From Patescibacteria group bacterium (GTDB lineage Bacteria > Patescibacteriota > Dojkabacteria > J137), in assembly GCA_963169855.1 (NCBI GenBank), contig CAUJCN010000002.1, positions 69,508 through 133,507 of the forward strand: a stretch of 64,000 nucleotides of DNA, given 5' to 3'. The position numbers were made by a program, and so were the translations under genes. Under the pieces are notes generated by a model. That model had not been told where the DNA came from. It ran no database searches and saw only the letters and a list, made by a program, of their open reading frames with translations. This document shows, one piece after another, positions 10,413 to 62,042 of this stretch. The number at the start of each line of letters is the position of its first letter. Within the stretch, counting starts at the first letter, position 1.

Positions 10413-10840
10413 ATGAGTTTTGGCAGATGAACACTTTAAGTGCCAGAAGGCAGTGTAACTCCGAATAGAGCCTGTGTCAATGGCATTTGACTACTTTAAA
10501 CATCGTGTTTAACTCGGCTTAATTGCACGGATACTCTCAATTAGAAACCTTTCACTGAGACGCTTTTTCTAAAGAATGCAGGTAAACTGCGAATTTCTAG
10601 ACTAGAAGCAGTTTTAGAAACTCTCGACTATTTGCTTCAGGAAAAGAGAAAATTGTAGCCTAGAGAACCTACATTCGATGCGTTTGATAACAAGACCATA
10701 CACAATATGAAACTAGAAATGGAAGAACTAGTTAGAGACCGATTCTCCAAAATATTAAAAGGATATTTTTCAGACTTTGTATCGCAGGAAAGTTAAAATG
10801 AGCATTTAGTTCAAATTAAATTTCAAGTAAAGTATATTCA

Positions 10841-12007: not shown

Positions 12008-12352
12008 ATGAAAACACTCATAAGTTTAGTTGTAAGCGCTGTGGCTGTTTTAATTGCTGCTTATGTAATTCCTGGTGTAACTGTTAATGGTTTCTTTACA
12101 GCTGTAGTTGTAGCAGTAATCTTAGGTTTAGTAAATATGTTTATAAGACCAATCATTTCTCTGCTTACTCTTCCACTGAATATACTCACGCTTGGATTAT
12201 TTAGTTTCGTAATTACTGCTTTAATGATTATGTTAACAGGTGCTATTGTTCCAGGATTCACTGTTTCTGGATTTTTAACTGCATTGATTTTTGGAGTTGT
12301 TCTGTCACTTGTTAACGGATTACTATTCTCCTTAATGGGAGACGATAAATAA
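12008..12352 (+). CDS. DUF360 / phage-holin-4_2 (YvlD-like) family small membrane protein
   Basis: 114 aa, 4 TM helices; IPG...LGLVNMFIRPIISLLTLPLNILTLGLFSFVI motif pattern. Confidence 0.55.
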   Translation: MKTLISLVVSAVAVLIAAYVIPGVTVNGFFTAVVVAVILGLVNMFIRPIISLLTLPLNILTLGLFSFVITALMIMLTGAIVPGFTVSGFLTALIFGVVLSLVNGLLFSLMGDDK

Positions 12353-12374
12353 TTTTACTAATTAACAGAAATTT

Positions 12375-12740
12375 ATGGGAGTTCCTCAAAAGTACGCAGA
12401 TATCGATGACTATATTAAGAATTTCTCTCCTGAAGTTCAGGATGTATTAGAAAGAATTCGAAAATTAGTTCATAAAATTGCACCTGATGTAGAAGAGTCA
12501 ATTACTTACCATATGCCAACATTCAAAGTTGCGGGGAAAGGAATCATATACTTTGCTGCTTGGTCAAAACACGTTGCTTTTTACGCGCTCCCAGTAGATT
12601 TACCAGAATTCAAAGAAGAGTTTGCACCCTACATCCAGTCGAAAGGAACTGTTCAGTTTAAATTCGATGCACCAATGCCTTGGGACTTAATTGAAAAAGT
12701 AATTAAATATAGAGCTAAAAATCCAATTGATTACCAATAA
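12375..12740 (+). CDS. DUF1801 (YdhG-like) family protein, second paralog
   Basis: 121 aa; IDDYI...VQDVLERIRKLVHKIAPDVEESITYHMPTF...GKGIIYFAAWSKHVAFY pattern. Confidence 0.55.
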   Translation: MGVPQKYADIDDYIKNFSPEVQDVLERIRKLVHKIAPDVEESITYHMPTFKVAGKGIIYFAAWSKHVAFYALPVDLPEFKEEFAPYIQSKGTVQFKFDAPMPWDLIEKVIKYRAKNPIDYQ

Positions 12741-12743
12741 TTT

Positions 12744-13169
12744 ATGAAGGAAGTAAAGTTAGTACTTTTTAAATTTACGAAATACCTAGTAATAATAGGT
12801 TTCTTTTTAACATTTGGTTCTTTTATTATTGCAGGAAATTACGAAATAGCATTCACTGCTATTTTCGTTACAGGAACAATCATTCTAACTATTAGCCAAG
12901 GAGTTCTAAGTTATTCACCCTCGATTAAAAACGATTCATTACAAGATGAATTTACTAATTCGGGCAAGTCACTGTTTACATCATCAATTTGGCTTTTAAT
13001 ATCAGGGATATTTGTTTTCTTATACTTGGGAGTTATTCTTTTTTCTCAACTACAACCTGTTGTTTTAGAATCCATTAAAATAATTGTGCTGCTTCTTTAT
13101 AGTATTTCTTATCTATTTTTCGCGGAATCCTTTGTAAAAGGAATCAAAAAAGTAGAAGATATATTATAA
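12744..13169 (+). CDS. hypothetical membrane protein
   Basis: 141 aa, four predicted TM helices. Confidence 0.4.
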   Translation: MKEVKLVLFKFTKYLVIIGFFLTFGSFIIAGNYEIAFTAIFVTGTIILTISQGVLSYSPSIKNDSLQDEFTNSGKSLFTSSIWLLISGIFVFLYLGVILFSQLQPVVLESIKIIVLLLYSISYLFFAESFVKGIKKVEDIL

Positions 13170-13176
13170 TCATTGA

Positions 13177-13602
13177 ATGACGAGACGAATCACAGTTGTA
13201 AAACCTTCTGAAATGTTCAGACTAATGAACGACAACCTTACTTTAGGTGATTCTACATTTTCTTCACTTATTGAAAACAAATCAAGTTTAAGAATTAACA
13301 TTGAGAATATGTCTGATAAATTTGTAGTTACTGCAGTTGTACCAGGTTATAAAAAAGACGAAATTAGTATTTCTTTTAGAGATAACGAACTTCTTTTAGA
13401 AGCTCAGAAGGAGGAACAAAATGAGTCTTCTGATTCAGAAATAATTTTAAGAGAGTATTCTATTGAATCACTTAAAAGAAGAATCACTCTTCCAGAAAAA
13501 GTTGATGTAGAAAATGCCGAGGCAGAACTAAATGATGGTATTATGACCATAACGGTTCCAAAAATGCCTGAAATATTACCAAAGAAAATTAGTATTAAGT
13601 AA
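13177..13602 (+). CDS. Hsp20/alpha-crystallin family small heat-shock protein
   Basis: 141 aa; alpha-crystallin-domain pattern including the C-terminal AELNDGIMTITVPK. Confidence 0.75.
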   Translation: MTRRITVVKPSEMFRLMNDNLTLGDSTFSSLIENKSSLRINIENMSDKFVVTAVVPGYKKDEISISFRDNELLLEAQKEEQNESSDSEIILREYSIESLKRRITLPEKVDVENAEAELNDGIMTITVPKMPEILPKKISIK

Positions 13603-26432: not shown

Positions 26433-27196
26433 AAAACTCAAACGACTCAGTTTCAAAATACTACAACATAGTCAGCAATTATATTAAACCTACTGAAATT
26501 ACCAAACAGGAAATAAGTTTAATTAAAGACATTAAAGCTCCTGGAGTAAAAGTTCTAGACATTGGATGTGGAACAGGAAGGCACTCTATTCCACTTATAG
26601 AAAATGGTTACGAGGTTTACGGAGTCGAAGAAAGTGAAGGAATGCTTAATCAACTAAAGTTTAATATCAAAGATCAAAGTAGTGAAAGAGATCCCGGATT
26701 AAATCCGGGATCTGGTTACGCTTCCCATTTCCAAAATATAAGCATTTTTGATTTTCAATCTGAAGTTAAATTTGATCTGATTGTCATGTTCTGGAATACT
26801 TTCAACGAGATTGCTTTATCCGATGAAATTGCAGTAGAACTGGTTCGGAAATTAGAAACATTGTTAAGTCCATCTGGGCAGATTCTAATCAACTCCGACA
26901 ACCCAGGAACCAGAAGTTCAGATTTATACAACTACAATTACTCAATCAGTAAAGACAACGTAAACATTGATTACAGCTGGGAAGTTCTTTCTAAAGATGT
27001 AAATAATGTGACCACATCGCACGAAACGATTAACGTTACTACTAATTCAGAATCTAAATTCTTTGAAACCACTATAAAGCAAAGATGGTACAGCGTTTTA
27101 GATTATAAGAATTTGTTTGAAAAATTTAATTTCAAAGTAGAGGAGCGACACATTTCTGGAAGTGGGGAAATGTACTTACTAATCAGCAGAGTTTAA
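26429..27196 (+). CDS. class I SAM-dependent methyltransferase
   Basis: VLDIGCGTGRHS motif I. Confidence 0.65.
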   Translation: MKNSNDSVSKYYNIVSNYIKPTEITKQEISLIKDIKAPGVKVLDIGCGTGRHSIPLIENGYEVYGVEESEGMLNQLKFNIKDQSSERDPGLNPGSGYASHFQNISIFDFQSEVKFDLIVMFWNTFNEIALSDEIAVELVRKLETLLSPSGQILINSDNPGTRSSDLYNYNYSISKDNVNIDYSWEVLSKDVNNVTTSHETINVTTNSESKFFETTIKQRWYSVLDYKNLFEKFNFKVEERHISGSGEMYLLISRV

Positions 27197-29534: not shown

Positions 29535-29606
29535 ACTATTTGTTTAAAAAGTGACTTTAATAATTGTACCATCTTCATGTTTTGCAAACTTTGTAATCTT
29601 CCATAC

Positions 29607-29631
29607 AGATCCCGCACTTGATGCGGGATCT
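29607..29631. repeat. GC-rich palindromic hairpin (copy 1), likely the miaA terminator
   Basis: agatcccgca-cttga-tgcgggatct; reverse-complement copy at 56042..56066. Confidence 0.6.
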
Positions 29632-41989: not shown

Positions 41990-42415
41990 TTAAGTCTCGT
42001 TTTTAACAGGCTCAAATAGCTGCTTAGCTTCCTCGATAGTTTCTGATGTCTTTGTATTATGGCGAGTTAATTTGAGTTGTCCTGCACCTTTTCTATCTGT
42101 GAAATACGATCCTGAAAGTTCTCGAACTGGGTCGCCAATAATATCAAGTGTCACAGCTCCGTCATGTGGACGGTTATCGCCTCTTTTCCCATGAGGTGCT
42201 TCACTTTTGTAAAGATAGTAAAGTTGTAGTTTGTTTTGGTAACTTTTGGTTATCTTTGCTGTTATTGAGTTTGATTCTGAAGGTTTTTCGAAAAAGGAGC
42301 GAATATGAATTGAAGTAAGTGTTTGGTGAATACAAACATAGATATCTACATTGCCTTTCTTTCCATCTTTATCACTCTCATAATAAAGGTTACCTTTCCA
42401 AGTTCCATGCATTAC
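41990..42415 (-). CDS. hypothetical protein in a GC-richer segment (start placed at internal Met)
   Basis: the N-terminal 60 codons of tracked ORF 41990..42601 look like antisense read-through; MHGTWKGNLYYESDKDGKKG... onward looks protein-like. Confidence 0.35.
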   Translation of the reverse strand, partial: VMHGTWKGNLYYESDKDGKKGNVDIYVCIHQTLTSIHIRSFFEKPSESNSITAKITKSYQNKLQLYYLYKSEAPHGKRGDNRPHDGAVTLDIIGDPVRELSGSYFTDRKGAGQLKLTRHNTKTSETIEEAKQLFEPVKNET

Positions 42416-42433
42416 TGGGATCTGGAAGTAGTG

Positions 42434-42709
42434 ATGCGATATACAGAATTTATGTGGCAAAGATTCGAAGATGACATTAAACGACTTAACCACCTGAGAG
42501 GCGTAATGAATCAAAAAGCCGATGAGATTAGACCTACACCGCACAATACTCAAAAGAGTAAAGCTGAGATTACCGAAGAAGAAAATCAGATGCTCAGACA
42601 ATATCTAGTACACATACTTCAATACGGTACGCCTGAGGAGAGGAAAAACATACTAGGCGGTATCAAATCAAAGTTTGAACTAACAGACAGGAGATTAATC
42701 CTTAAATAA
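42434..42709 (+). CDS. small hypothetical helical protein, divergent from the previous gene
   Basis: MRYTEFMWQRFEDDIKRLNHLRGV...LTDRRLILK; codon usage slightly GC-richer than neighbours. Confidence 0.35.
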   Translation: MRYTEFMWQRFEDDIKRLNHLRGVMNQKADEIRPTPHNTQKSKAEITEEENQMLRQYLVHILQYGTPEERKNILGGIKSKFELTDRRLILK

Positions 42710-42732
42710 TTTTTAAAATATCTCTTGACAAA

Positions 42733-42759
42733 TTAGCAGTTAATGCATTAGACTGCTAA
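42733..42759 (+). promoter_or_regulatory. CIRCE-like inverted repeat (putative HrcA operator) in the hsp20 leader
   Basis: TTAGCAGTT-AATGCATTA-GACTGCTAA (9-N9-9 geometry like CIRCE); TTGACA hexamer 3 nt upstream. Confidence 0.55.
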
Positions 42760-42886
42760 TAGATAAATAACTAAGGACTTTCATCTGAGGTTTCTGAAAT
42801 TATTTACAACCTCTTTTGAATTCCCCAATATTTATCAAGTCTTATATTACTTAATTAATTTTAGGTATTATGAACAATACATTTAC

Positions 42887-42912
42887 TTAGCGATTTATAG
42901 TCATGTCGCTAA
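42887..42912 (+). promoter_or_regulatory. second, weaker CIRCE-like palindrome in the hsp20 leader
   Basis: TTAGCGA-N12-TCGCTAA. Confidence 0.3.
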
Positions 42913-43095
42913 AACAACTTTACAATTTAATACAATCTTGTTTAGTTAGGTAAAACCTAATTTGTACTGAATATCTTTTCAGTAGGACTAATTAAAATGT
43001 AAAGAAAGCCAAGTTCCCCGGCTTGTAAAAGATAGGGGAACCATTAATACAATACACTGCTATAGTTATTATTTAATTTATTAAAGGAAGATATT

Positions 43096-43566
43096 ATGAA
43101 AATTACAAAAAGAAACAATAATGACAACACGCAACTTGCAACAACATCTTACTCACCTGTGAGAAGTATGTTTGATGATTTCTTTAGGATGCCATCATTA
43201 ATTGACGAAATGTTTAATAGATCGGTTATGCCAAGTTATAGTAGTCTTTCTGCTGATGTTTGGGAAGAAGACGATAGCTTCTTTGTGAAAATGGCTTTGC
43301 CTGGAGTAACTAAAGATGATGTCGAGATTGAGGTTGACGCAGATGTAGTTAGAATCAAGGGTGGGAAAAAGGTAGAAGAGAAAGAAGATAATAAAAAGAA
43401 GTATTATTATCGAAGCCTTGATACTCAATTTGAGCAGGCATTTAATCTACCTACTGTAGTAGATGCAGAAAAAGTAGAGGCTAAGTTTAAAGATGGTGTT
43501 CTTGAAGTAAAGTTACCAAAGGCTGAACAATATAAGCCGAAAAAAATCTCAATAGAAGGTGAATAA
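43096..43566 (+). CDS. Hsp20/alpha-crystallin family small heat-shock protein (paralog 2)
   Basis: 156 aa; alpha-crystallin-domain pattern (DGVLEVKLPK). Confidence 0.8.
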   Translation: MKITKRNNNDNTQLATTSYSPVRSMFDDFFRMPSLIDEMFNRSVMPSYSSLSADVWEEDDSFFVKMALPGVTKDDVEIEVDADVVRIKGGKKVEEKEDNKKKYYYRSLDTQFEQAFNLPTVVDAEKVEAKFKDGVLEVKLPKAEQYKPKKISIEGE

Positions 43567-55959: not shown

Positions 55960-56041
55960 AACTGTATAAAAGTTTCAAAATTTAAAGCTAAAAGATTAAA
56001 AATAATCTGACTAAATTTTATCACAACGTTTAATCTAAAGC

Positions 56042-56066
56042 AGATCCCGCATCAAGTGCGGGATCT
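56042..56066. repeat. GC-rich palindromic hairpin (copy 2), likely the dnaK terminator
   Basis: agatcccgca-tcaag-tgcgggatct; exact reverse complement of 29607..29631. Confidence 0.6.
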
Positions 56067-56087
56067 AATAATCAAGTTGTTGTAACC

Positions 56088-58022
56088 TTAGTTGTTGTCT
56101 TTTTCTGGATCGATAACCTCGCTTGGTTCAGCTGGTTCATCGTTTGTTGGAGTTGGAACTCCAGATCCATCATTTGGTTGTGCTTCTGGTTGAGAATTGC
56201 TTTGATATAAAGTTGCATCTACGCCTTGCAAAGCTTCCATTAATTCCTTAGTAGCATTTTCTAAATTAGCCAATTCTGCGCTATTAGAATCTTTTACAGT
56301 CTTAAGTTCAGTTTTTGTTTTTTCAACACTTTCCTCAAGCTTCATCTTATCCTCTTCCTTCACCTTGTCTTTATTTTCAGATAAAAGTTTTTCTGTTTGA
56401 TAAATTACAGTTTCAGCTTCGTTTATAGCTTTTAATCTTGCGAGTTCTAACTGATCCTTTTGTGCATTCTCAGCAGCTTCTTTTACGAATTTATCGATTT
56501 CAGCCTGATCTAATTGAGTAGATGCTGTAATTGTAATCTGTTGCTCTTTCTGAGATTTAAGATCTTTAGCTTTAACATTCAAGATTCCGTTTGCATCTAG
56601 TTTAAATGTAATTGCAAATCTTGGTGTATTTCTTGGTGCTGGATCAATTCCATCCAATCTAAAGTTTCCTAAAACCTTGTTATCTCTTGCCAAAGGTCTT
56701 TCTCCTTGGAGAACTTTTACATCGATTGCTGGTTGATTATCCACGGCAGTTGTAAACATATCTTCAGTTTTTTCAGTTGGGATTGTTGTGTTTCTTGGAA
56801 TTAATACGTGCATTTCTCCAGCATTAACTTCTAAACCTAATGATAACGGTGTAACGTCCAATAAAGTAATGTCTTGAACAGAAGAATCTCCTGCAAGAAC
56901 TGCAGCCTGTAGAGATGCTCCAACAGCTACAACTTCATCTGGGTTAACACTTAGGTTTGGTTTCTTTCCAAAGAATTCTTCCACTTTCTTTAAAACCAAA
57001 GGCATTCTTGTCATACCTCCAACCATAATTACTTCTTGAATTTCTGATTTAGAAATTCCTGCGTCTGTAATAGCCTTATTTACTGAATCAAAAGTTCTTT
57101 CGATAAGATTCATTACTAATTTCTCGTAGTCTGCTTTCGATAAAGTCATTCTGAAATGCTTAGGACCTTTTGCATCAGCAGTGATGTAAGGTAAGTTCAC
57201 TTCTGTAGATTCTGCACTAGACAATGTAATCTTTGCTTTTTCTGCAGCTTCTTTTAATCTTTGTAATGCTGCGGGATCTTCTTTCAAATCAATTCCCTGA
57301 TCTTTCTTGAATTCAGCAATCATGTGGTCGATTAATACTTGGTCGAAGTCGTCTCCTCCTAAGTGAGTGTCTCCAGATGTAGATTTCACTTCGTAAACAC
57401 CATCTCCAATTTCTAAGACAGAAACATCGAATGTTCCTCCTCCTAAGTCGTAAACAATTATTGTTTGATCTCCTTGTTTATCAAGACCGTACGCAATTGC
57501 TGCTGCTGTAGGTTCGTTAATAATTCTTAGAACTTCTAGTCCTGCGATCTGACCTGCATTCTTTGTTGCCTGTCTTTGTGCATCATCAAAGTAAGCTGGA
57601 ACAGTAATTACTGCTTGATTTACAGGCTCACCTAGATAAGCTTCCGCGTCGGCTTTAATTTTTGCTAAAACTTTAGCAGAGATAACTTCTGGTGCAACCC
57701 ATTGATCACCAAATTTAATTTCAATTCCGTCTTTTGCACTCTTTCTAATTTCGAAAGGTAAAAGACCTACATCTTTCTGGACAGCAGCATCGTCGAAACG
57801 TCTACCGATTAATCTTTTGATTGAATAAAATGTCTGCTCAGGATTTGTAACCATTTGGTTTTTTGCTGTGATTCCAACAATTTCTGATTGAACGTCTACA
57901 GCTACAACAGATGGAACTAGTCTAGATCCTTCTTTACTCGTAATAACTTCAGGTTTTCCTGCCTGTACGAAGGCAACTACTGAGTTTGTTGTTCCTAAGT
58001 CGATTCCTACAACTTTTGCCAT
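56088..58022 (-). CDS. dnaK: molecular chaperone DnaK
   Basis: IDLGTTNS, DLGGGTFD, VGGMTRMP and other Hsp70 motifs. Confidence 0.95.
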   Translation of the reverse strand: MAKVVGIDLGTTNSVVAFVQAGKPEVITSKEGSRLVPSVVAVDVQSEIVGITAKNQMVTNPEQTFYSIKRLIGRRFDDAAVQKDVGLLPFEIRKSAKDGIEIKFGDQWVAPEVISAKVLAKIKADAEAYLGEPVNQAVITVPAYFDDAQRQATKNAGQIAGLEVLRIINEPTAAAIAYGLDKQGDQTIIVYDLGGGTFDVSVLEIGDGVYEVKSTSGDTHLGGDDFDQVLIDHMIAEFKKDQGIDLKEDPAALQRLKEAAEKAKITLSSAESTEVNLPYITADAKGPKHFRMTLSKADYEKLVMNLIERTFDSVNKAITDAGISKSEIQEVIMVGGMTRMPLVLKKVEEFFGKKPNLSVNPDEVVAVGASLQAAVLAGDSSVQDITLLDVTPLSLGLEVNAGEMHVLIPRNTTIPTEKTEDMFTTAVDNQPAIDVKVLQGERPLARDNKVLGNFRLDGIDPAPRNTPRFAITFKLDANGILNVKAKDLKSQKEQQITITASTQLDQAEIDKFVKEAAENAQKDQLELARLKAINEAETVIYQTEKLLSENKDKVKEEDKMKLEESVEKTKTELKTVKDSNSAELANLENATKELMEALQGVDATLYQSNSQPEAQPNDGSGVPTPTNDEPAEPSEVIDPEKDNN

Positions 58023-58205
58023 AATAATAAAAGTTTAAAAATAAAAAGGTCTAAAGATTAAATTAAGCTCGAAATTCAAAGATTGAAGTTCGAAAATTAA
58101 TTAATCTTACACTTTATTCCTAATGTGAGCCACTAGGTGGCTTGTCGAACCATCAAGGTAATTTCACATTTCGACTTCGCTCATGTGACACCTTTGCTGC
58201 TCGAA

Positions 58206-58232
58206 TTAGCAGTATAAGTATAAGCCTGCTAA
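58206..58232. promoter_or_regulatory. CIRCE-like inverted repeat ~180 bp upstream of dnaK
   Basis: TTAGCAGTA-TAAGTATAA-GCCTGCTAA; same TTAGCAG-N13-CTGCTAA core as 42733..42759. Confidence 0.55.
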
Positions 58233-58439
58233 TTTATTGTGTCAAGAATTAATATGTTACAAAATGGGATTTTATAGTTCTACTAACTGTTTTTTTAACT
58301 CTTCAATTAATTCATCAATAATTGTATGTAATGATTCAATTCCTGCGACAATCTCGATAGTTATGTTTAGCTCCCTTTGTAGATAATTCTTTTGTACTAC
58401 TAGGGAAGTTACGAAAGTGAGATGAAAGTTGCACAGCGA

Positions 58440-59693
58440 TCAAATTGCCGAAATCAATGCGTTAAGTTCAGGAAAGTTCTGGTTGAAAACCTCTACAATC
58501 TCGGATCTGAATACAGGACAAGTTTTATTGTAAATTTCAGTAATGCCAGCTTGATATGGATGTGAATCATAGTTTGGGTATTCTAGATCAAATTGCTCAC
58601 CATTATTACTTTCTGATTCTCGAATTTTATCTTGGGGCATTCTAACTGCAACTGCTTTATAGTGGGCAAAAGATCCCACAACTTTTCCAGTTGGGTCAAT
58701 AATTGTCACACATGATAGAAAAGGTAAATGAACAGGAAGTCCTCTGGCAGCTAATGATTCAACCCAACCTACAGCGTTGTAATATCCTGTTTTTTCAACA
58801 ATTGAGTATCCTAAAGCTATCAACTTCTTAGCTGTTTCTGACCCAGTAAAGTCAAAGAATGGTTCTTCAAAGACCTCGTTGTTTTTCATGTTTTCTACAA
58901 GTTCGCTTTCTGGAGTTTCCGAAACAATTTTATGTTGGAGTTTGAGAAATTCGCTTAAGTAACCGACATTAGCATCTGGTTGAACCCAATGACCTGCAGT
59001 TTGTATAGATTTTGTTGGAGAAAACCCCTTGGTCATCTGACCCAAAACTCGAGCGTATTCTTCGTAAGAACCGAAATATTTAAGCAAATACTGTCTAAAA
59101 ACATTAACTGGTAAATTTGCTGAGTATTTTAAAGATAAGATTTGCAGCGTTTTTATTGAAAAGCTGTACGAATCTAATGCTGTATTTAACGGAGGTTTCA
59201 GCTCTTGAGATTGAATATCGTAATAGTCTTCTTCGAAATGTTTTAAAACTGCTTCTAGCTCTTGTTTATCTGTTGGTAGTTCTGAATTTAAGTAGTTTTT
59301 GAAAATGACTTCCAGTACCTTTCGGATATCTGGATTATCGCTTACAACAAATAATTGTTTTCGACCAATTAATTCAGCGATTAGACTTCCAGCGTTTAAA
59401 TCTATCTGAGTATCTCCTTCCTTCGAAACGATTTGATCGAATAATGAAGATATAGCTATTTTTGCGATACTTGCTAGATAAACAGGTTCAGAAGGCTCCT
59501 GTATTAAAATATTTTCACCTTTGATAACTGAACTTGCAGTCTCGCTAGGTATTTCTAGAAATTCAGCTTCTTGGTATTGAGAAAATAGTTTTTGCTCACT
59601 TTCAGCATATGCCGAATTTACTTGTTCAATTCTTGCTTGAAGTCTTGATCTTATTACTTCTGTTTCTGGCGATAGTTCCCTAGGTTTATCCAT
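58440..59693 (-). CDS. hypothetical protein inside the heat-shock operon
   Basis: 417 aa, no motif recognised; 18 bp downstream of grpE. Confidence 0.45.
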   Translation of the reverse strand: MDKPRELSPETEVIRSRLQARIEQVNSAYAESEQKLFSQYQEAEFLEIPSETASSVIKGENILIQEPSEPVYLASIAKIAISSLFDQIVSKEGDTQIDLNAGSLIAELIGRKQLFVVSDNPDIRKVLEVIFKNYLNSELPTDKQELEAVLKHFEEDYYDIQSQELKPPLNTALDSYSFSIKTLQILSLKYSANLPVNVFRQYLLKYFGSYEEYARVLGQMTKGFSPTKSIQTAGHWVQPDANVGYLSEFLKLQHKIVSETPESELVENMKNNEVFEEPFFDFTGSETAKKLIALGYSIVEKTGYYNAVGWVESLAARGLPVHLPFLSCVTIIDPTGKVVGSFAHYKAVAVRMPQDKIRESESNNGEQFDLEYPNYDSHPYQAGITEIYNKTCPVFRSEIVEVFNQNFPELNALISAI

Positions 59694-59711: not shown

Positions 59712-60674
59712 TTACTTTCCCACTACTACTTTTGCTGGTTTAAAAACGCCTTCTCGATCTTTGTACTTGTAAGCTGAGCTGATTACAGCGATTACTTTTC
59801 CTTTCTGAGATTCGTCTGGAACAGGAATCATAGAAACTGCTTCCATCTTTTCTTTGTCAAAAATATCTCCAACATTAACAGCAATTGTCTCAACTCCAGC
59901 AGAAGCTACAGTTTGAACAATTTTATCTTTTGCTGATCTGATTGAAGATTTTGCATTTTCGATGTCTAGATTCTCATCATTCAGAGCCAGATTGATATCA
60001 TCGTGAATTTCTAAGATAGACCTGATTAATCCCATGTTTGCCATTGCCCCGAATAATGCTTTTTCTCCCTCAACTCTTTTCTGATAATTCTGAAAGTCAG
60101 AAATTAAAGTTATTCTTTTGCTAGTCTCGTCTTTTAATTTAGCTTCCAAATCAGCGATTTTTGCTGATTCACCTTTGTGTTCAATTTTTTCTGTTTCTCC
60201 AAATGAGTTTGCTAAAACTTTTTCCAAAAGACTGAATTCTCTTACTACAATGAAGTAATCTGCATCCTTATCTTCAAGAGTTACTAATTTTATACTCTCT
60301 GAGTCACTGGACACACTAAAGTAATCGCTACCTGAATATTTAGTTAAAAATCCTTGGAAATCGTTAGAAAAATAGTTCACATTTCCTATGTCTTCTCTGC
60401 CTGCGCTAGGTTTTCTAATTTTAACTACATCGACTCCTCCTAAAGAAGTATTTAGAATTCTATCTAGCTTAATAAAAATACCAGTTGAACTTTCTGCAAA
60501 AAATGAACCTTCTTTCAAAAGTTCTTCAGAAAATTGTTCGTATTCTTCTGTAGATTGAGCGAAAATAGAAATAAACTCTAGATTTTCCTCTCCAAAGTTT
60601 AGTTTATCTAAAAAGCTCGCTGCTTTATCTGCAATTTCGATGATTAATGCTGATGCTGACTTCATAATTTTCAT
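59712..60674 (-). CDS. grpE: GrpE with ~165-aa N-terminal extension
   Basis: C-terminal 155 aa carry LISDFQNYQKRVEGE, HDDINLAL, AGVETIAV, FDKEKMEAV, FKPAKVVVGK; N-terminal part unrecognised. Confidence 0.8.
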   Translation of the reverse strand: MKIMKSASALIIEIADKAASFLDKLNFGEENLEFISIFAQSTEEYEQFSEELLKEGSFFAESSTGIFIKLDRILNTSLGGVDVVKIRKPSAGREDIGNVNYFSNDFQGFLTKYSGSDYFSVSSDSESIKLVTLEDKDADYFIVVREFSLLEKVLANSFGETEKIEHKGESAKIADLEAKLKDETSKRITLISDFQNYQKRVEGEKALFGAMANMGLIRSILEIHDDINLALNDENLDIENAKSSIRSAKDKIVQTVASAGVETIAVNVGDIFDKEKMEAVSMIPVPDESQKGKVIAVISSAYKYKDREGVFKPAKVVVGK

Positions 60675-60780
60675 TCTTAACTTGGGATATTATAACACTT
60701 GAAAACTAATGCCAGAATATACCTTACAGTTAATCAAAGCTTGAAAAGTGAAGATAGAAGATCGAAAAAATTACTCTAGA

Positions 60781-61119
60781 TCATCTCAGTGTTTTCTGGA
60801 TACTACCTAATATTAACCCCAACTCTCTAGCCTCTGAGCGGAAATCTTGGAATCTACTATCAGAGGTCACCGCGCTAAGTATATCCAACCAGTAAACAGT
60901 TTCTGCAGCTTCCTTTTTTGCTATTTTAACCCTCATTTTAAAGTCCTTAGGACCAATATGCTGGTTAGCCTCTATATAATTGGCACCTATAGAACCTGAT
61001 GAACGAATTACCTGTCTGAAATCGTCAATTAGTAGAGAGTTGTACTTGAATGTCGCTAGGTGCTGTCTTACGTTTATGGAAAAATTTTTGGCTCGATCTA
61101 CTAAATCAAATGTTTTCAT
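60781..61119 (-). CDS. four-helix-bundle protein (TIGR02436-like)
   Basis: 112 aa; QVIRSSGSIGANYIEAN...KIAKKEAAETVYWLDIL pattern. Confidence 0.55.
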   Translation of the reverse strand: MKTFDLVDRAKNFSINVRQHLATFKYNSLLIDDFRQVIRSSGSIGANYIEANQHIGPKDFKMRVKIAKKEAAETVYWLDILSAVTSDSRFQDFRSEARELGLILGSIQKTLR

Positions 61120-61237
61120 AAAGCTATTCTATGAAATCTATAAACAAGACACCATGTTTTGCAATACAATTTTCGATCTTTAAGTTTCTGATTTCGAACT
61201 TAACTTTGAATTAGTTGAAGAGACCTAAGTTTGTCAG

Positions 61238-61972
61238 TTAGCGAATTACCAAAATCTTTCTAATTGCTTCGATAGTGAATTGAAGAAGAGGAATGATTCT
61301 ATTGTATCTCATTCTATTTGGACCAATAATTGCTAAGTATCCATGATTTTCGCCATTTATTCTCAATTCGTTGAAAACAATCGCATATTCACCAAACATA
61401 TCTTGACCGGATTCTTCGCCAATTAGAACATTTGTATCATGATCTTTGACTTCTCTGTTCATCATTTCGGATAAAACGCTGTAATCTTCCAAAATTGTTA
61501 AGATTCTTTTTAGATTGTCTGTATCTCTAAATTCTGGGATATTTACTAATTCTGAAAGTCCTGAATACATTACTTGACCGTCTACAACAGCAATCGCTGC
61601 GTTTCCGCTAAACTTGCTCAGCATCACTACACTTTTTCTAATAACCTGTTCTGAATCTTCGTTGACTTTGTGAAGAACATTTTGAATTTCGTCTTGAGTT
61701 CCAGTATCGATATCGTCAAATCCTATTGATTCTAAGTAGTCTACAAAGAACCTCCATCCTTTAGTCGTAGGTATTCTTCCACTACTTAGGTTCTTTTGAT
61801 AAAGATATCCTAGTAGTCCCAAATTCGACATCTCATTTCTAATTGTTGCTGGACTTAAGTCAAAATCGTATTTATTTTGAAGGCTGATAGAACCAACTGC
61901 TTCTGCAGTTTCTATAAACTCTTTGATTATTGTCAAAAGTAGCTCTTTTTGTCTCTCTGAGAACTTATCCAT
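61238..61972 (-). CDS. hrcA: heat-inducible transcription repressor HrcA (short form)
   Basis: N-terminal wHTH LSERQKELLLTIIKEFIETAEAVGSISL...LSPATIRNEMSNL...SSGRIPTTKGWRFFVDYL. Confidence 0.8.
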   Translation of the reverse strand: MDKFSERQKELLLTIIKEFIETAEAVGSISLQNKYDFDLSPATIRNEMSNLGLLGYLYQKNLSSGRIPTTKGWRFFVDYLESIGFDDIDTGTQDEIQNVLHKVNEDSEQVIRKSVVMLSKFSGNAAIAVVDGQVMYSGLSELVNIPEFRDTDNLKRILTILEDYSVLSEMMNREVKDHDTNVLIGEESGQDMFGEYAIVFNELRINGENHGYLAIIGPNRMRYNRIIPLLQFTIEAIRKILVIR

Positions 61973-62042
61973 GTTTGTAGTATACCATATATTCTAGAGC
62001 TGAAATCGAGCTTATACTATACATCTATGATATAATTAATAC

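What the first reader, a model, noticed from the sequence alone, without database searches (positions are those of the whole stretch)
58206..58232. Same CIRCE-variant upstream of dnaK, implying dnaK has its own HrcA-controlled promoter separate from hrcA-grpE
TTAGCAGTA-N9-GCCTGCTAA lies ~180 bp upstream of the dnaK start, between dnaK and the unknown 417-aa gene. The same 7-nt half-sites (TTAGCAG / CTGCTAA, spacing 13) at two heat-shock genes, ~15 kb apart, are unlikely by chance. No such element was found upstream of hrcA itself (61973-62042).
Basis: seen in the sequence. Interest (0 to 1): 0.55.

Follow-up and report, generated by a model that had tools for sequence, protein, structure and literature searches.

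The report
HrcA operator on the dnaK promoter
The inverted repeat upstream of dnaK is very probably a binding site (CIRCE operator) for the heat-shock repressor HrcA, lying on top of dnaK's own promoter in a tiny uncultured Dojkabacteria-like bacterium; this is a well-known kind of switch, so the finding is correct but ordinary.

Summary
TTAGCAGTA-N9-GCCTGCTAA lies at 58206-58232, 183 nt before the dnaK ATG. An identical-arm copy lies at 42733-42759, before hsp20. The CIRCE core TTAGCA-N15-TGCTAA is expected 0.01-0.03 times in this window and occurs twice. A matrix built from relatives scores these two sites 25.4 and 22.7 bits; the next site scores 10.8.

The dnaK repeat overlaps the best sigma-70-type promoter of the region, TTGACA-17-TATACT, with the -10 inside the spacer. 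The same -35/operator/-10 layout precedes dnaK in four of the five Dojkabacteria-like relatives examined; the fifth (L003) keeps the repeat without a consensus -35. It also precedes hsp20 in all eight orthologues examined. Across 943 kb of fetched loci, 66 of 67 exact cores precede hrcA, dnaK or hsp20.

The window encodes HrcA, with the recognition helix and wing conserved. The most likely mechanism is therefore HrcA occluding an independent, monocistronic dnaK promoter.

The missing site at hrcA is real and looks like a lineage-specific loss, because five more distant relatives keep one.

This is a new member of a known kind. The more unusual items are side observations: a short HrcA lacking about 100 residues, and long structured leaders on dnaK and hsp20.

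The parts
58206..58232 (.). CIRCE-like inverted repeat, the putative HrcA operator of dnaK. On the gene strand it reads TTAGCAGGC-ttatactta-TACTGCTAA.
   Evidence: 22.7 bits. Conserved before dnaK in L002, L003, L096, L097 and L098.
58240..58245 (-). -35 hexamer TTGACA of the dnaK promoter
   Evidence: best promoter-like site, 11 of 12. TTGAC(A) is kept in L002, L096, L097 and L098.
58217..58222 (-). -10 hexamer TATACT, inside the spacer and inner right arm of the repeat
   Evidence: TATACT or TAGAAT sits at the same place in the relatives.
58023..58205 (-). dnaK 5' leader. If the start site is near 58210 it is about 185 nt long. About 155 nt are extra relative to the closest relatives, and it includes a hairpin at 58054-58108.
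   Evidence: Alignment with L002. Folding z-score -3.66. Hairpin and related repeats. No Rfam match. The start site is inferred, not mapped.
56088..58022 (-). dnaK (644 aa)
   Evidence: Pfam HSP70, E 4.5e-233
56041..56067 (-). Terminator-like GC hairpin 21 nt after the dnaK stop codon
   Evidence: The same hairpin family occurs at 26688 and 29606.
42733..42759 (.). Second CIRCE-like repeat, the putative HrcA operator of hsp20: TTAGCAGTT-aatgcatta-GACTGCTAA
   Evidence: 25.4 bits. Present before all 8 hsp20 orthologues fetched.
42725..42754 (+). hsp20 promoter TTGACA-18-TAGACT, overlapping the repeat
   Evidence: The conserved block starts exactly at TTGACA in alignment A4.
43096..43566 (+). 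hsp20 (156 aa), preceded by a 336-nt leader (42760-43095)
   Evidence: Pfam HSP20. Leader folding z-score -5.35. Leader conserved in relatives.
61238..61972 (-). hrcA, short form (244 aa), the presumed repressor
   Evidence: Pfam HrcA C-terminal domain. 1STZ N-terminal match, E 2.6e-15. Structure model TMq 0.82 to 1STZ.
61973..62042 (-). hrcA upstream region without an operator. An extended -10, TG-g-TATACT (61979-61987), ends 6 nt before the ATG.
   Evidence: The relatives L002 and L096 carry TTAGCAA-N13-CTGCTAT here.
59712..60674 (-). grpE (320 aa), with no operator. It has its own extended -10, TGTTATAAT, at 60689-60697.

Best explanation
The 27-bp inverted repeat is a CIRCE-type operator for the HrcA repressor encoded 3 kb away. 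It covers the spacer, the -10 hexamer and the probable start site of a sigma-70-type promoter that belongs to dnaK alone. HrcA, presumably as a dimer, binds the two TTAGCA/TGCTAA half-sites through its winged-helix domains and blocks RNA polymerase. When HrcA is inactivated, dnaK is transcribed as a monocistronic mRNA with a long leader. Inactivation could follow heat or protein-folding stress, either through intrinsic thermolability or through loss of chaperone support, as in studied species. The same repressor controls hsp20 through an identical-arm operator. In this lineage hrcA and grpE carry no operator.

Shown here: the sequence, its rarity, the promoter overlap, conservation in relatives, and the presence and conservation of HrcA.

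Inferred: binding, repression, the start site, and the inducing signal.
For: - The core is expected 0.01-0.03 times and is seen twice, both times at chaperone genes.
- Matrix scores are 25.4 and 22.7 bits, against 10.8 or less elsewhere.
- The repeat overlaps TTGACA-17-TATACT, the best promoter match of the region. The hsp20 site overlaps TTGACA-18-TAGACT.
- The operator precedes dnaK in all 5 Dojkabacteria-like relatives, at 23-131 nt from the ATG; four of them also keep the TTGAC(A) -35.
- All 8 hsp20 orthologues examined have TTGACA followed by CIRCE. In the 5-sequence alignment A4, conservation starts at the -35, and the arms are more conserved than the spacer.
- In 943 kb of fetched loci, 66 of 67 exact cores precede hrcA (55), dnaK (7) or hsp20 (4).
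- Among 80 unique sites (up to 1 core mismatch; most beside short CPR hrcA, some beside long-form hrcA of other bacteria), 21 carry TGnTAnnnT inside the repeat on the gene strand, against 1 on the other strand.
- The HrcA helix SPATIRNEM and wing SSGRIPT are invariant between short and long forms.
- The CIRCE consensus and the steric-occlusion mechanism are described in PMC7464140.
Against: - There is no experimental data: no transcript mapping and no binding assay.
- The inner arm positions 7-9 match the canonical CTC/GAG at only 2 of 6 positions.
- This HrcA lacks about 100 residues of the canonical protein. From memory of the 1STZ paper, that is the main dimerising domain, so how a dimer forms on a palindrome is unclear.
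- hrcA itself has no operator here, which is atypical.
- Only 64 kb of a roughly 818-kb genome could be scanned, so groESL and other expected targets were not seen.
- No terminator was found between the upstream ORF and the dnaK promoter, so read-through transcription is not excluded.
Confidence: 0.85

Rival explanations
1. The repeat is a conserved operator, but for a regulator other than HrcA, or it is a decaying relic that HrcA no longer uses in this lineage. The lineage has already lost the site at hrcA.
For: The inner arm positions differ from canonical CIRCE (one search finds the dnaK site only beyond 3 mismatches). The hrcA operator is lost in the window and in L001. This HrcA scores just under the NCBIfam equivalog cutoff, 193.4 against 197.2.
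Against: Both outer hexamers are perfect at both genes and are kept across relatives whose flanks have diverged. The same core precedes hrcA itself in 55 loci, which ties it to HrcA. No HAIR (HspR) or CtsR boxes occur above chance. The HrcA DNA-binding motifs are invariant.
Confidence: 0.07
2. The repeat acts as an RNA hairpin: a terminator for the upstream 417-aa ORF, or a stability or processing element in a read-through grpE-to-dnaK transcript.
For: No other terminator was detected between the 417-aa ORF and dnaK. From memory, CIRCE has been reported to influence mRNA stability in Bacillus.
Against: The stem is only 7 A/T-rich pairs with a 13-nt loop and no following T-run, and it is not listed by the terminator scan. 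With the -10 inside the spacer, the dnaK transcript would start inside the right arm and could not form the hairpin. At hsp20 the same element follows a convergent gene rather than a co-directional one. The spacer sequence varies while it keeps a -10-like hexamer on the gene strand.
Confidence: 0.04
3. Two palindromes fell near heat-shock genes by chance.
For: The motif with G at position 7 was defined after seeing the two sites.
Against: Using only the pre-defined CIRCE core, 0.0075-0.03 sites are expected and 2 are observed. The sites are conserved in orthologous positions in 13 other loci.
Confidence: 0.01

Closest known systems
CIRCE/HrcA system of Bacillus subtilis (dnaK and groE operons)
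   Same: An inverted repeat with 9-nt arms and a 9-nt spacer, TTAGCA...TGCTAA outer hexamers, placed at a vegetative-sigma promoter of chaperone genes. An HrcA gene lies next to grpE and dnaK. The consensus is taken from PMC7464140.
   Different: Arm positions 7-9 are not CTC/GAG. dnaK has its own operator and promoter instead of being transcribed from the hrcA promoter. hrcA and grpE have no operator here. hsp20 belongs to the regulon. HrcA is about 100 residues shorter.
CIRCE-like operators and HrcA of Campylobacter jejuni and Helicobacter pylori
   Same: Degenerate CIRCE-like repeats that overlap the core promoter and start site, and repression by steric hindrance (PMC7464140). The NCBIfam model for that group (NF003033) is only 264 positions long, so short HrcA proteins already exist among studied bacteria.
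   Different: There HrcA acts together with HspR, and no HAIR boxes are found here. The window protein matches NF003033 only in its N-terminal 70 residues (44.9 bits against a cutoff of 248), so it is a separate short lineage.
Thermotoga maritima HrcA crystal structure (PDB 1STZ)
   Same: The predicted structure (pLDDT 91) superposes with TM-score 0.82 normalised to the query. The N-terminal winged helix aligns with E 2.6e-15.
   Different: About 100 residues, roughly 140-230 of 1STZ, have no counterpart. From memory of the 1STZ paper this is the inserted dimerising domain; the paper could not be retrieved here.
Other CPR (candidate phyla radiation) hrcA-grpE-dnaK loci
   Same: The same short HrcA and the same core operator. 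Arms with G at position 7 are frequent.
   Different: Most have a single operator before hrcA and none before dnaK. A second operator at dnaK is seen in the Dojkabacteria-like loci and in L057, L063, L064 and L070.

Membership tests
CIRCE operator (HrcA binding site) | Inverted repeat matching TTAGCACTC-N9-GAGTGCTAA | tested here: met
   14 of 18 arm positions match, the outer hexamers are perfect, and the spacer is exactly 9 nt. The inner triplets are divergent, within the range seen at hrcA promoters of relatives.
CIRCE operator (HrcA binding site) | Located at or overlapping the promoter of a chaperone gene | tested here: met
   Overlaps TTGACA-17-TATACT before dnaK and TTGACA-18-TAGACT before hsp20. 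The promoters are consensus matches, not mapped.
CIRCE operator (HrcA binding site) | hrcA gene present in the same genome | tested here: met
   hrcA is at 61238-61972.
CIRCE operator (HrcA binding site) | Conserved at orthologous promoters in related genomes | tested here: met
   5 of 5 dnaK loci and 8 of 8 hsp20 loci.
CIRCE operator (HrcA binding site) | Bound by HrcA, with heat-inducible derepression | not testable with these tools
   Needs EMSA or footprinting, and transcript measurements.
HrcA repressor family | Passes curated family thresholds | tested here: inconclusive
   Pfam HrcA C-terminal domain scores 78.8 bits against a cutoff of 22.2, a pass. NCBIfam TIGR00331 equivalog scores 193.4 against 197.2, just under, matched in two stretches because the middle of the model is missing.
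HrcA repressor family | Three-domain architecture: winged helix, GAF-like domain, inserted domain | tested here: not met
   A clean gap of about 101 residues between residues 130 and 131, relative to 338-350-aa forms. The model aligns to 1STZ over the winged-helix and GAF-like parts only. All close homologues are 233-261 aa.
HspR/HAIR and CtsR heat-shock operators | CTTGAGT-N7-ACTCAAG, or tandem RGTCAAA heptads, at heat-shock promoters | tested here: not met
   Matches occur at chance frequency and none lie at dnaK, hsp20, hrcA or grpE.
Known RNA leaders or thermometers (Rfam) | Covariance-model match in the dnaK or hsp20 leader | tested here: not met
   Only hits with E above 2 to unrelated families.

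The most novel reading that the evidence does not exclude
In this Dojkabacteria-like lineage the HrcA circuit has been rewired. A minimal HrcA, with the winged helix and GAF-like domain but without the roughly 100-residue inserted domain, is no longer autoregulated. It controls only stand-alone dnaK and hsp20 promoters. Each of those is followed by an unusually long, structured leader that adds a second, RNA-level layer of control. The hsp20 leader is conserved, shows compensatory changes and holds a 6-codon mini-ORF.
Probability: 0.3. Interest if true: 0.45.

Novelty: new member of a known kind. Interest (0 to 1): 0.27.

Why it matters
It shows that the most widespread bacterial heat-shock switch (HrcA and CIRCE) operates recognisably in ultra-small, uncultured CPR bacteria, and it defines three probable parts of the regulon: dnaK, hsp20 and, in relatives, hrcA. 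No paper in the searched library links HrcA or CIRCE with CPR bacteria. This is useful for annotation: several of these short HrcA proteins are labelled 'hypothetical' in public records. It is also useful for reading metatranscriptomes. It does not change how the system is understood. The short HrcA and the long leaders are the items that might repay further work.

Tried and rejected
- Canonical CIRCE search with up to 3 mismatches found only the hsp20 site, so the dnaK site needs the relaxed core.
- Rfam at gathering threshold over the whole window gave only two tRNAs. Permissive searches of both leaders and of the 10.4-10.9 kb spacer gave only chance-level hits.
- BLAST of the two leaders against the window found no repeat family beyond short A/T-rich words.
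- HAIR and CtsR box searches gave chance-level results.
- The idea that TTCGAA-type motifs are a general intergenic signal was rejected, since there is no overall intergenic enrichment. However, 10 of 25 intergenic TTCGA/TCGAA occurrences fall in the hrcA-to-dnaK spacers.
- A search for GroEL genes in the window and in the CPR loci, to test a groESL operator, found only thermosome-like genes beside long-form hrcA in non-CPR loci.
- The weak third matrix hit (10420-10446, 10.8 bits, before an ABC transporter) was treated as unproven.
- Papers giving the domain boundaries of 1STZ could not be found in the library.

Full report
**Observation**

The stretch 58206-58232 reads TTAGCAGTA-TAAGTATAA-GCCTGCTAA. 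dnaK occupies 56088-58022 on the minus strand (Pfam HSP70, E 4.5e-233), so the repeat ends 183 nt before its ATG.

Upstream on the same strand lie four ORFs:
- an ORF of 417 aa with no family match (58440-59693)
- grpE (59712-60674)
- a 23S-rRNA-intervening-sequence-family ORF (60781-61119)
- hrcA (61238-61972)

The only other TTAGCAG-N13-CTGCTAA in the window is at 42733-42759, 336 nt before an Hsp20-family gene at 43096-43566.

**Is it more than chance?**

TTAGCA-N15-TGCTAA is expected 0.03 times from dinucleotide shuffles and 0.0075 times from base composition. It occurs twice. TTAGCAG is the only 7-N13-7 arm that recurs in the window, and only 2 of 200 shuffles gave any recurring arm.

A position matrix built solely from 80 sites in other genomes gives 25.4 bits (hsp20 site) and 22.7 bits (dnaK site). 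One weak site scores 10.8 bits (10420-10446, before an ABC transporter). Nothing else exceeds 1.1 bits.

**Anatomy**

On the gene strand the dnaK region reads TTGACA caataaa TTAGCAGGC ttatactta TACTGCTAA. The consensus scan ranks TTGACA(58245-58240)-17-TATACT(58222-58217) as the best promoter-like site in 55.4-62.8 kb, at 11 of 12. The repeat therefore spans the promoter spacer, the -10 and the expected start site near 58210.

The hsp20 site has the same logic. TTGACA (42725-42730) lies 2 nt before the repeat, and TAGACT is the -10.

A terminator-like GC hairpin follows dnaK at 56041-56067, so dnaK looks monocistronic. No terminator was detected between the 417-aa ORF and the dnaK promoter, so read-through from upstream cannot be excluded.

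**Organism and relatives**

HrcA relatives in reference genomes are uncultured Dojkabacteria/Saccharibacteria-labelled MAGs (metagenome-assembled genomes), with 89%, 81%, 58% and lower identity. The window therefore comes from a CPR (candidate phyla radiation, Patescibacteria) bacterium. Identical Hsp20 and HrcA proteins occur on a contig of 817,811 bp.

*dnaK.* All five Dojkabacteria-like loci that reach dnaK carry the element there:

| Locus | HrcA identity | Distance to dnaK ATG | Sequence |
|---|---|---|---|
| L002 | 81% | 28 nt | TTGACAcattaaaTTAGCAGTCttatacttaTACTGCTAA |
| L096 | 80% | 28 nt | same architecture as L002 |
| L097 | 62% | 23 nt | TTAGCAGGTttatacttaGAGTGCTAA |
| L098 | 57% | 131 nt | TTAGCAGGGgtagaattaGAGTGCTAA |
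| L003 | 58% | 73-84 nt, depending on the start codon | TTAGCACTCaaccttaccTCTTGCTAA |

L003 keeps the repeat but has no consensus -35 (cctgac in place of TTGAC). In all five, grpE and one to three unrelated, variable ORFs lie between hrcA and dnaK. That fits dnaK needing a promoter of its own.

*hsp20.* All eight orthologues fetched (59-87% identity) carry TTGACA, then 0-2 nt, then CIRCE. In the alignment of the window with four of these orthologues (A4), conservation begins exactly at the -35. The arms are better conserved than the spacer.

*All fetched sequence.* In 943 kb (the window plus 98 loci) there are 67 exact cores. Of these, 55 precede hrcA, 7 precede dnaK, 4 precede hsp20, and one sits 74 nt from a contig end. 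The loci were chosen for hrcA or hsp20, so the enrichment there is partly ascertainment. The informative part is the absence of sites elsewhere.

*Strand bias.* The 80 unique sites (up to 1 core mismatch) come from the hrcA loci, most beside short CPR hrcA and some beside long-form hrcA of other bacteria. Of them, 21 contain an extended -10 (TGnTAnnnT) within the repeat on the gene strand, against 1 on the opposite strand. In 42 there is a TTGAC within 30 nt upstream. Operator-promoter overlap is thus common in these loci.

**The repressor**

The 244-aa HrcA matches the T. maritima HrcA structure 1STZ over its N-terminal winged-helix region (E 2.6e-15). The motifs SPATIRNEM and SSGRIPT are invariant between the short CPR forms and 338-350-aa forms.

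Relative to the long forms it lacks one contiguous block of about 101 residues, between residues 130 and 131. That corresponds to roughly residues 140-230 of 1STZ. An AlphaFold model (pLDDT 91) superposes on 1STZ with TM 0.82 normalised to the query and 0.63 normalised to the target. All 120 listed homologues are 233-261 aa.

From memory of the 1STZ paper, the missing block is the 'inserted dimerising domain'. I could not retrieve that paper. The protein scores 193.4 against a cutoff of 197.2 on the NCBIfam hrcA equivalog model. This probably explains why several relatives are annotated as hypothetical.

Short HrcA proteins are not unprecedented: the NCBIfam model NF003033 is 264 positions long. 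From memory, that model covers epsilonproteobacterial HrcA proteins such as those of Campylobacter and Helicobacter.

**Mechanism**

The best-supported reading is the classical one (PMC7464140). HrcA binds the palindrome and sterically blocks RNA polymerase at a promoter dedicated to dnaK. Stress inactivates HrcA and releases transcription.

Because the -10 lies inside the repeat, the transcript would start within the right arm. An RNA-hairpin role is therefore unlikely. The stem is 7 A/T-rich pairs with a 13-nt loop and no T-run, so it is not an intrinsic terminator. No HspR or CtsR boxes are present above chance.

**The missing site at hrcA**

The best match near 61973-62042 has 4 core mismatches and scores -12 bits. 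But five relatives carry a site before hrcA:
- L002 and L096: TTAGCAAatatggtatacTACTGCTAT, overlapping the -10 and the ATG
- L003, L097 and L098
- L008, which has an exact core

The three-way alignment shows that the window and its closest relative L001 keep the extended -10 (TGgTATACT, 6 nt before the ATG, suggesting a leaderless mRNA). Both half-sites, however, are mutated. The likeliest reading is a lineage-specific loss of autoregulation. L004-L007 also lack a recognisable site. grpE has its own extended -10 (TGTTATAAT, 60689-60697) and no operator.

**Side observations**

- The window's dnaK leader is about 155 nt longer than in L002 and L096. It folds better than shuffles (z -3.66). It contains a 26-nt-arm hairpin (58054-58108) related to imperfect inverted repeats that flank the intervening-sequence-family ORF (60737-60768 and 61170-61201). 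This suggests small insertion events remodelled the locus.
- The hsp20 leader (z -5.35) has nearly invariant blocks in four relatives. It shows two pairs with compensatory changes, and a 6-codon mini-ORF whose start and stop columns are kept in 5 of 5 sequences. Neither leader matches Rfam.
- The 417-aa ORF ends at a TGA that is followed in frame by 55 sense codons.

**Comparison and verdict**

This is a CIRCE/HrcA operator in a lineage where, within the searched library, it has not been described. A chaperone gene with its own CIRCE, apart from hrcA, is not new in kind. From memory, dnaK, clpB and lon in mycoplasmas, and dnaK-sHSP in Thermotoga, are reported examples. The inner-arm divergence is within what is tolerated in studied systems such as Campylobacter.

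I therefore classify it as a new member of a known kind. Interest is modest.

The main limits are the lack of any experimental data and access to only 64 kb of the genome, so the expected groESL site could not be checked.

Noticed in passing
window 61973-62042; L001 9900-10003; L002 9976-10002; L096 5507-5533: The hrcA promoter (extended -10 TGgTATACT, ATG 6 nt later, possibly a leaderless mRNA) carries a near-perfect CIRCE in L002 and L096. In the window and L001 both half-sites are mutated. This looks like a lineage-specific loss of HrcA autoregulation.
   Followed up: yes
window 61238-61972 (-): HrcA is a short form of 244 aa. It lacks one block of about 101 residues, roughly residues 140-230 of the T. 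maritima structure 1STZ. All 120 listed homologues are 233-261 aa, and the metagenome hits suggest the form is widespread in CPR bacteria. It scores just under the NCBIfam hrcA cutoff, and several relatives are annotated as hypothetical.
   Followed up: partly
window 42760-43095 (+); L092, L093, L094, L100: The long hsp20 leader has nearly invariant blocks (TAAGGAATTTC..., TTTTGAATTCCCCAAAGTTTA, TTACTTAATTAATTTTAGGTA) and two pairs with compensatory changes. A 6-codon mini-ORF (window 42860-42880, MNNTFT*) keeps its start and stop columns in 5 of 5 relatives. There is no Rfam match. It may be an undescribed cis-regulatory leader.
   Followed up: partly
window 58023-58205 (-), hairpin 58054-58108; 60737-60768 and 61170-61201: The dnaK leader is about 155 nt longer than in the closest relatives. 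It contains a hairpin whose arms resemble the imperfect 32-nt inverted repeats flanking the 23S-rRNA-intervening-sequence-family ORF (60781-61119). This suggests a small cassette with terminal repeats and a MITE-like remnant. In addition, 10 of 25 intergenic TTCGA/TCGAA words in the window lie in the hrcA-to-dnaK spacers, and the L098 dnaK leader is also rich in TTCGAA.
   Followed up: partly
window 58273-58442 (-): The 417-aa ORF between grpE and dnaK has no family match and no homologue in any fetched locus. It ends at a TGA that is followed in the same frame by 55 sense codons (…ELIEELKKQLVEL*) up to a TAA at 58273-58275. This may be a recent nonsense mutation or read-through. If it is translated, the gene ends only 27 nt before the dnaK -35.
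   Followed up: partly
window 10413-10840: A 428-nt spacer with no ORF and a visibly higher G+C content. It holds a weak CIRCE-like site (10420-10446, TTGGCAG-N13-GTGCCAG, 10.8 bits) 8 nt before a divergent ABC-transporter gene. There is no Rfam match, so an unrecognised RNA gene is possible.
   Followed up: partly
window 26688-26713, 29606-29631, 56041-56066: A GC-rich palindrome, AGATCCCGC-N5-GCGGGATCT, occurs three times in an A/T-rich genome. One copy is the terminator-like hairpin just after dnaK. It may be a shared terminator or REP-like element.
   Followed up: no
window 41990-42601 (-) and 42323-42709 (+): An ORF with a Cap15 cyclic-dinucleotide-receptor domain (E 7e-18), which is a CBASS-type defence effector domain, ends next to the hsp20 promoter. 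A 128-aa ORF on the other strand overlaps it by about 280 nt.
   Followed up: no
window 13177-13602 (+): A second, distant Hsp20-like ORF (29.5% identity to the first) sits at the end of a run of four small ORFs (12008-13602). It has no CIRCE-like site upstream.
   Followed up: no
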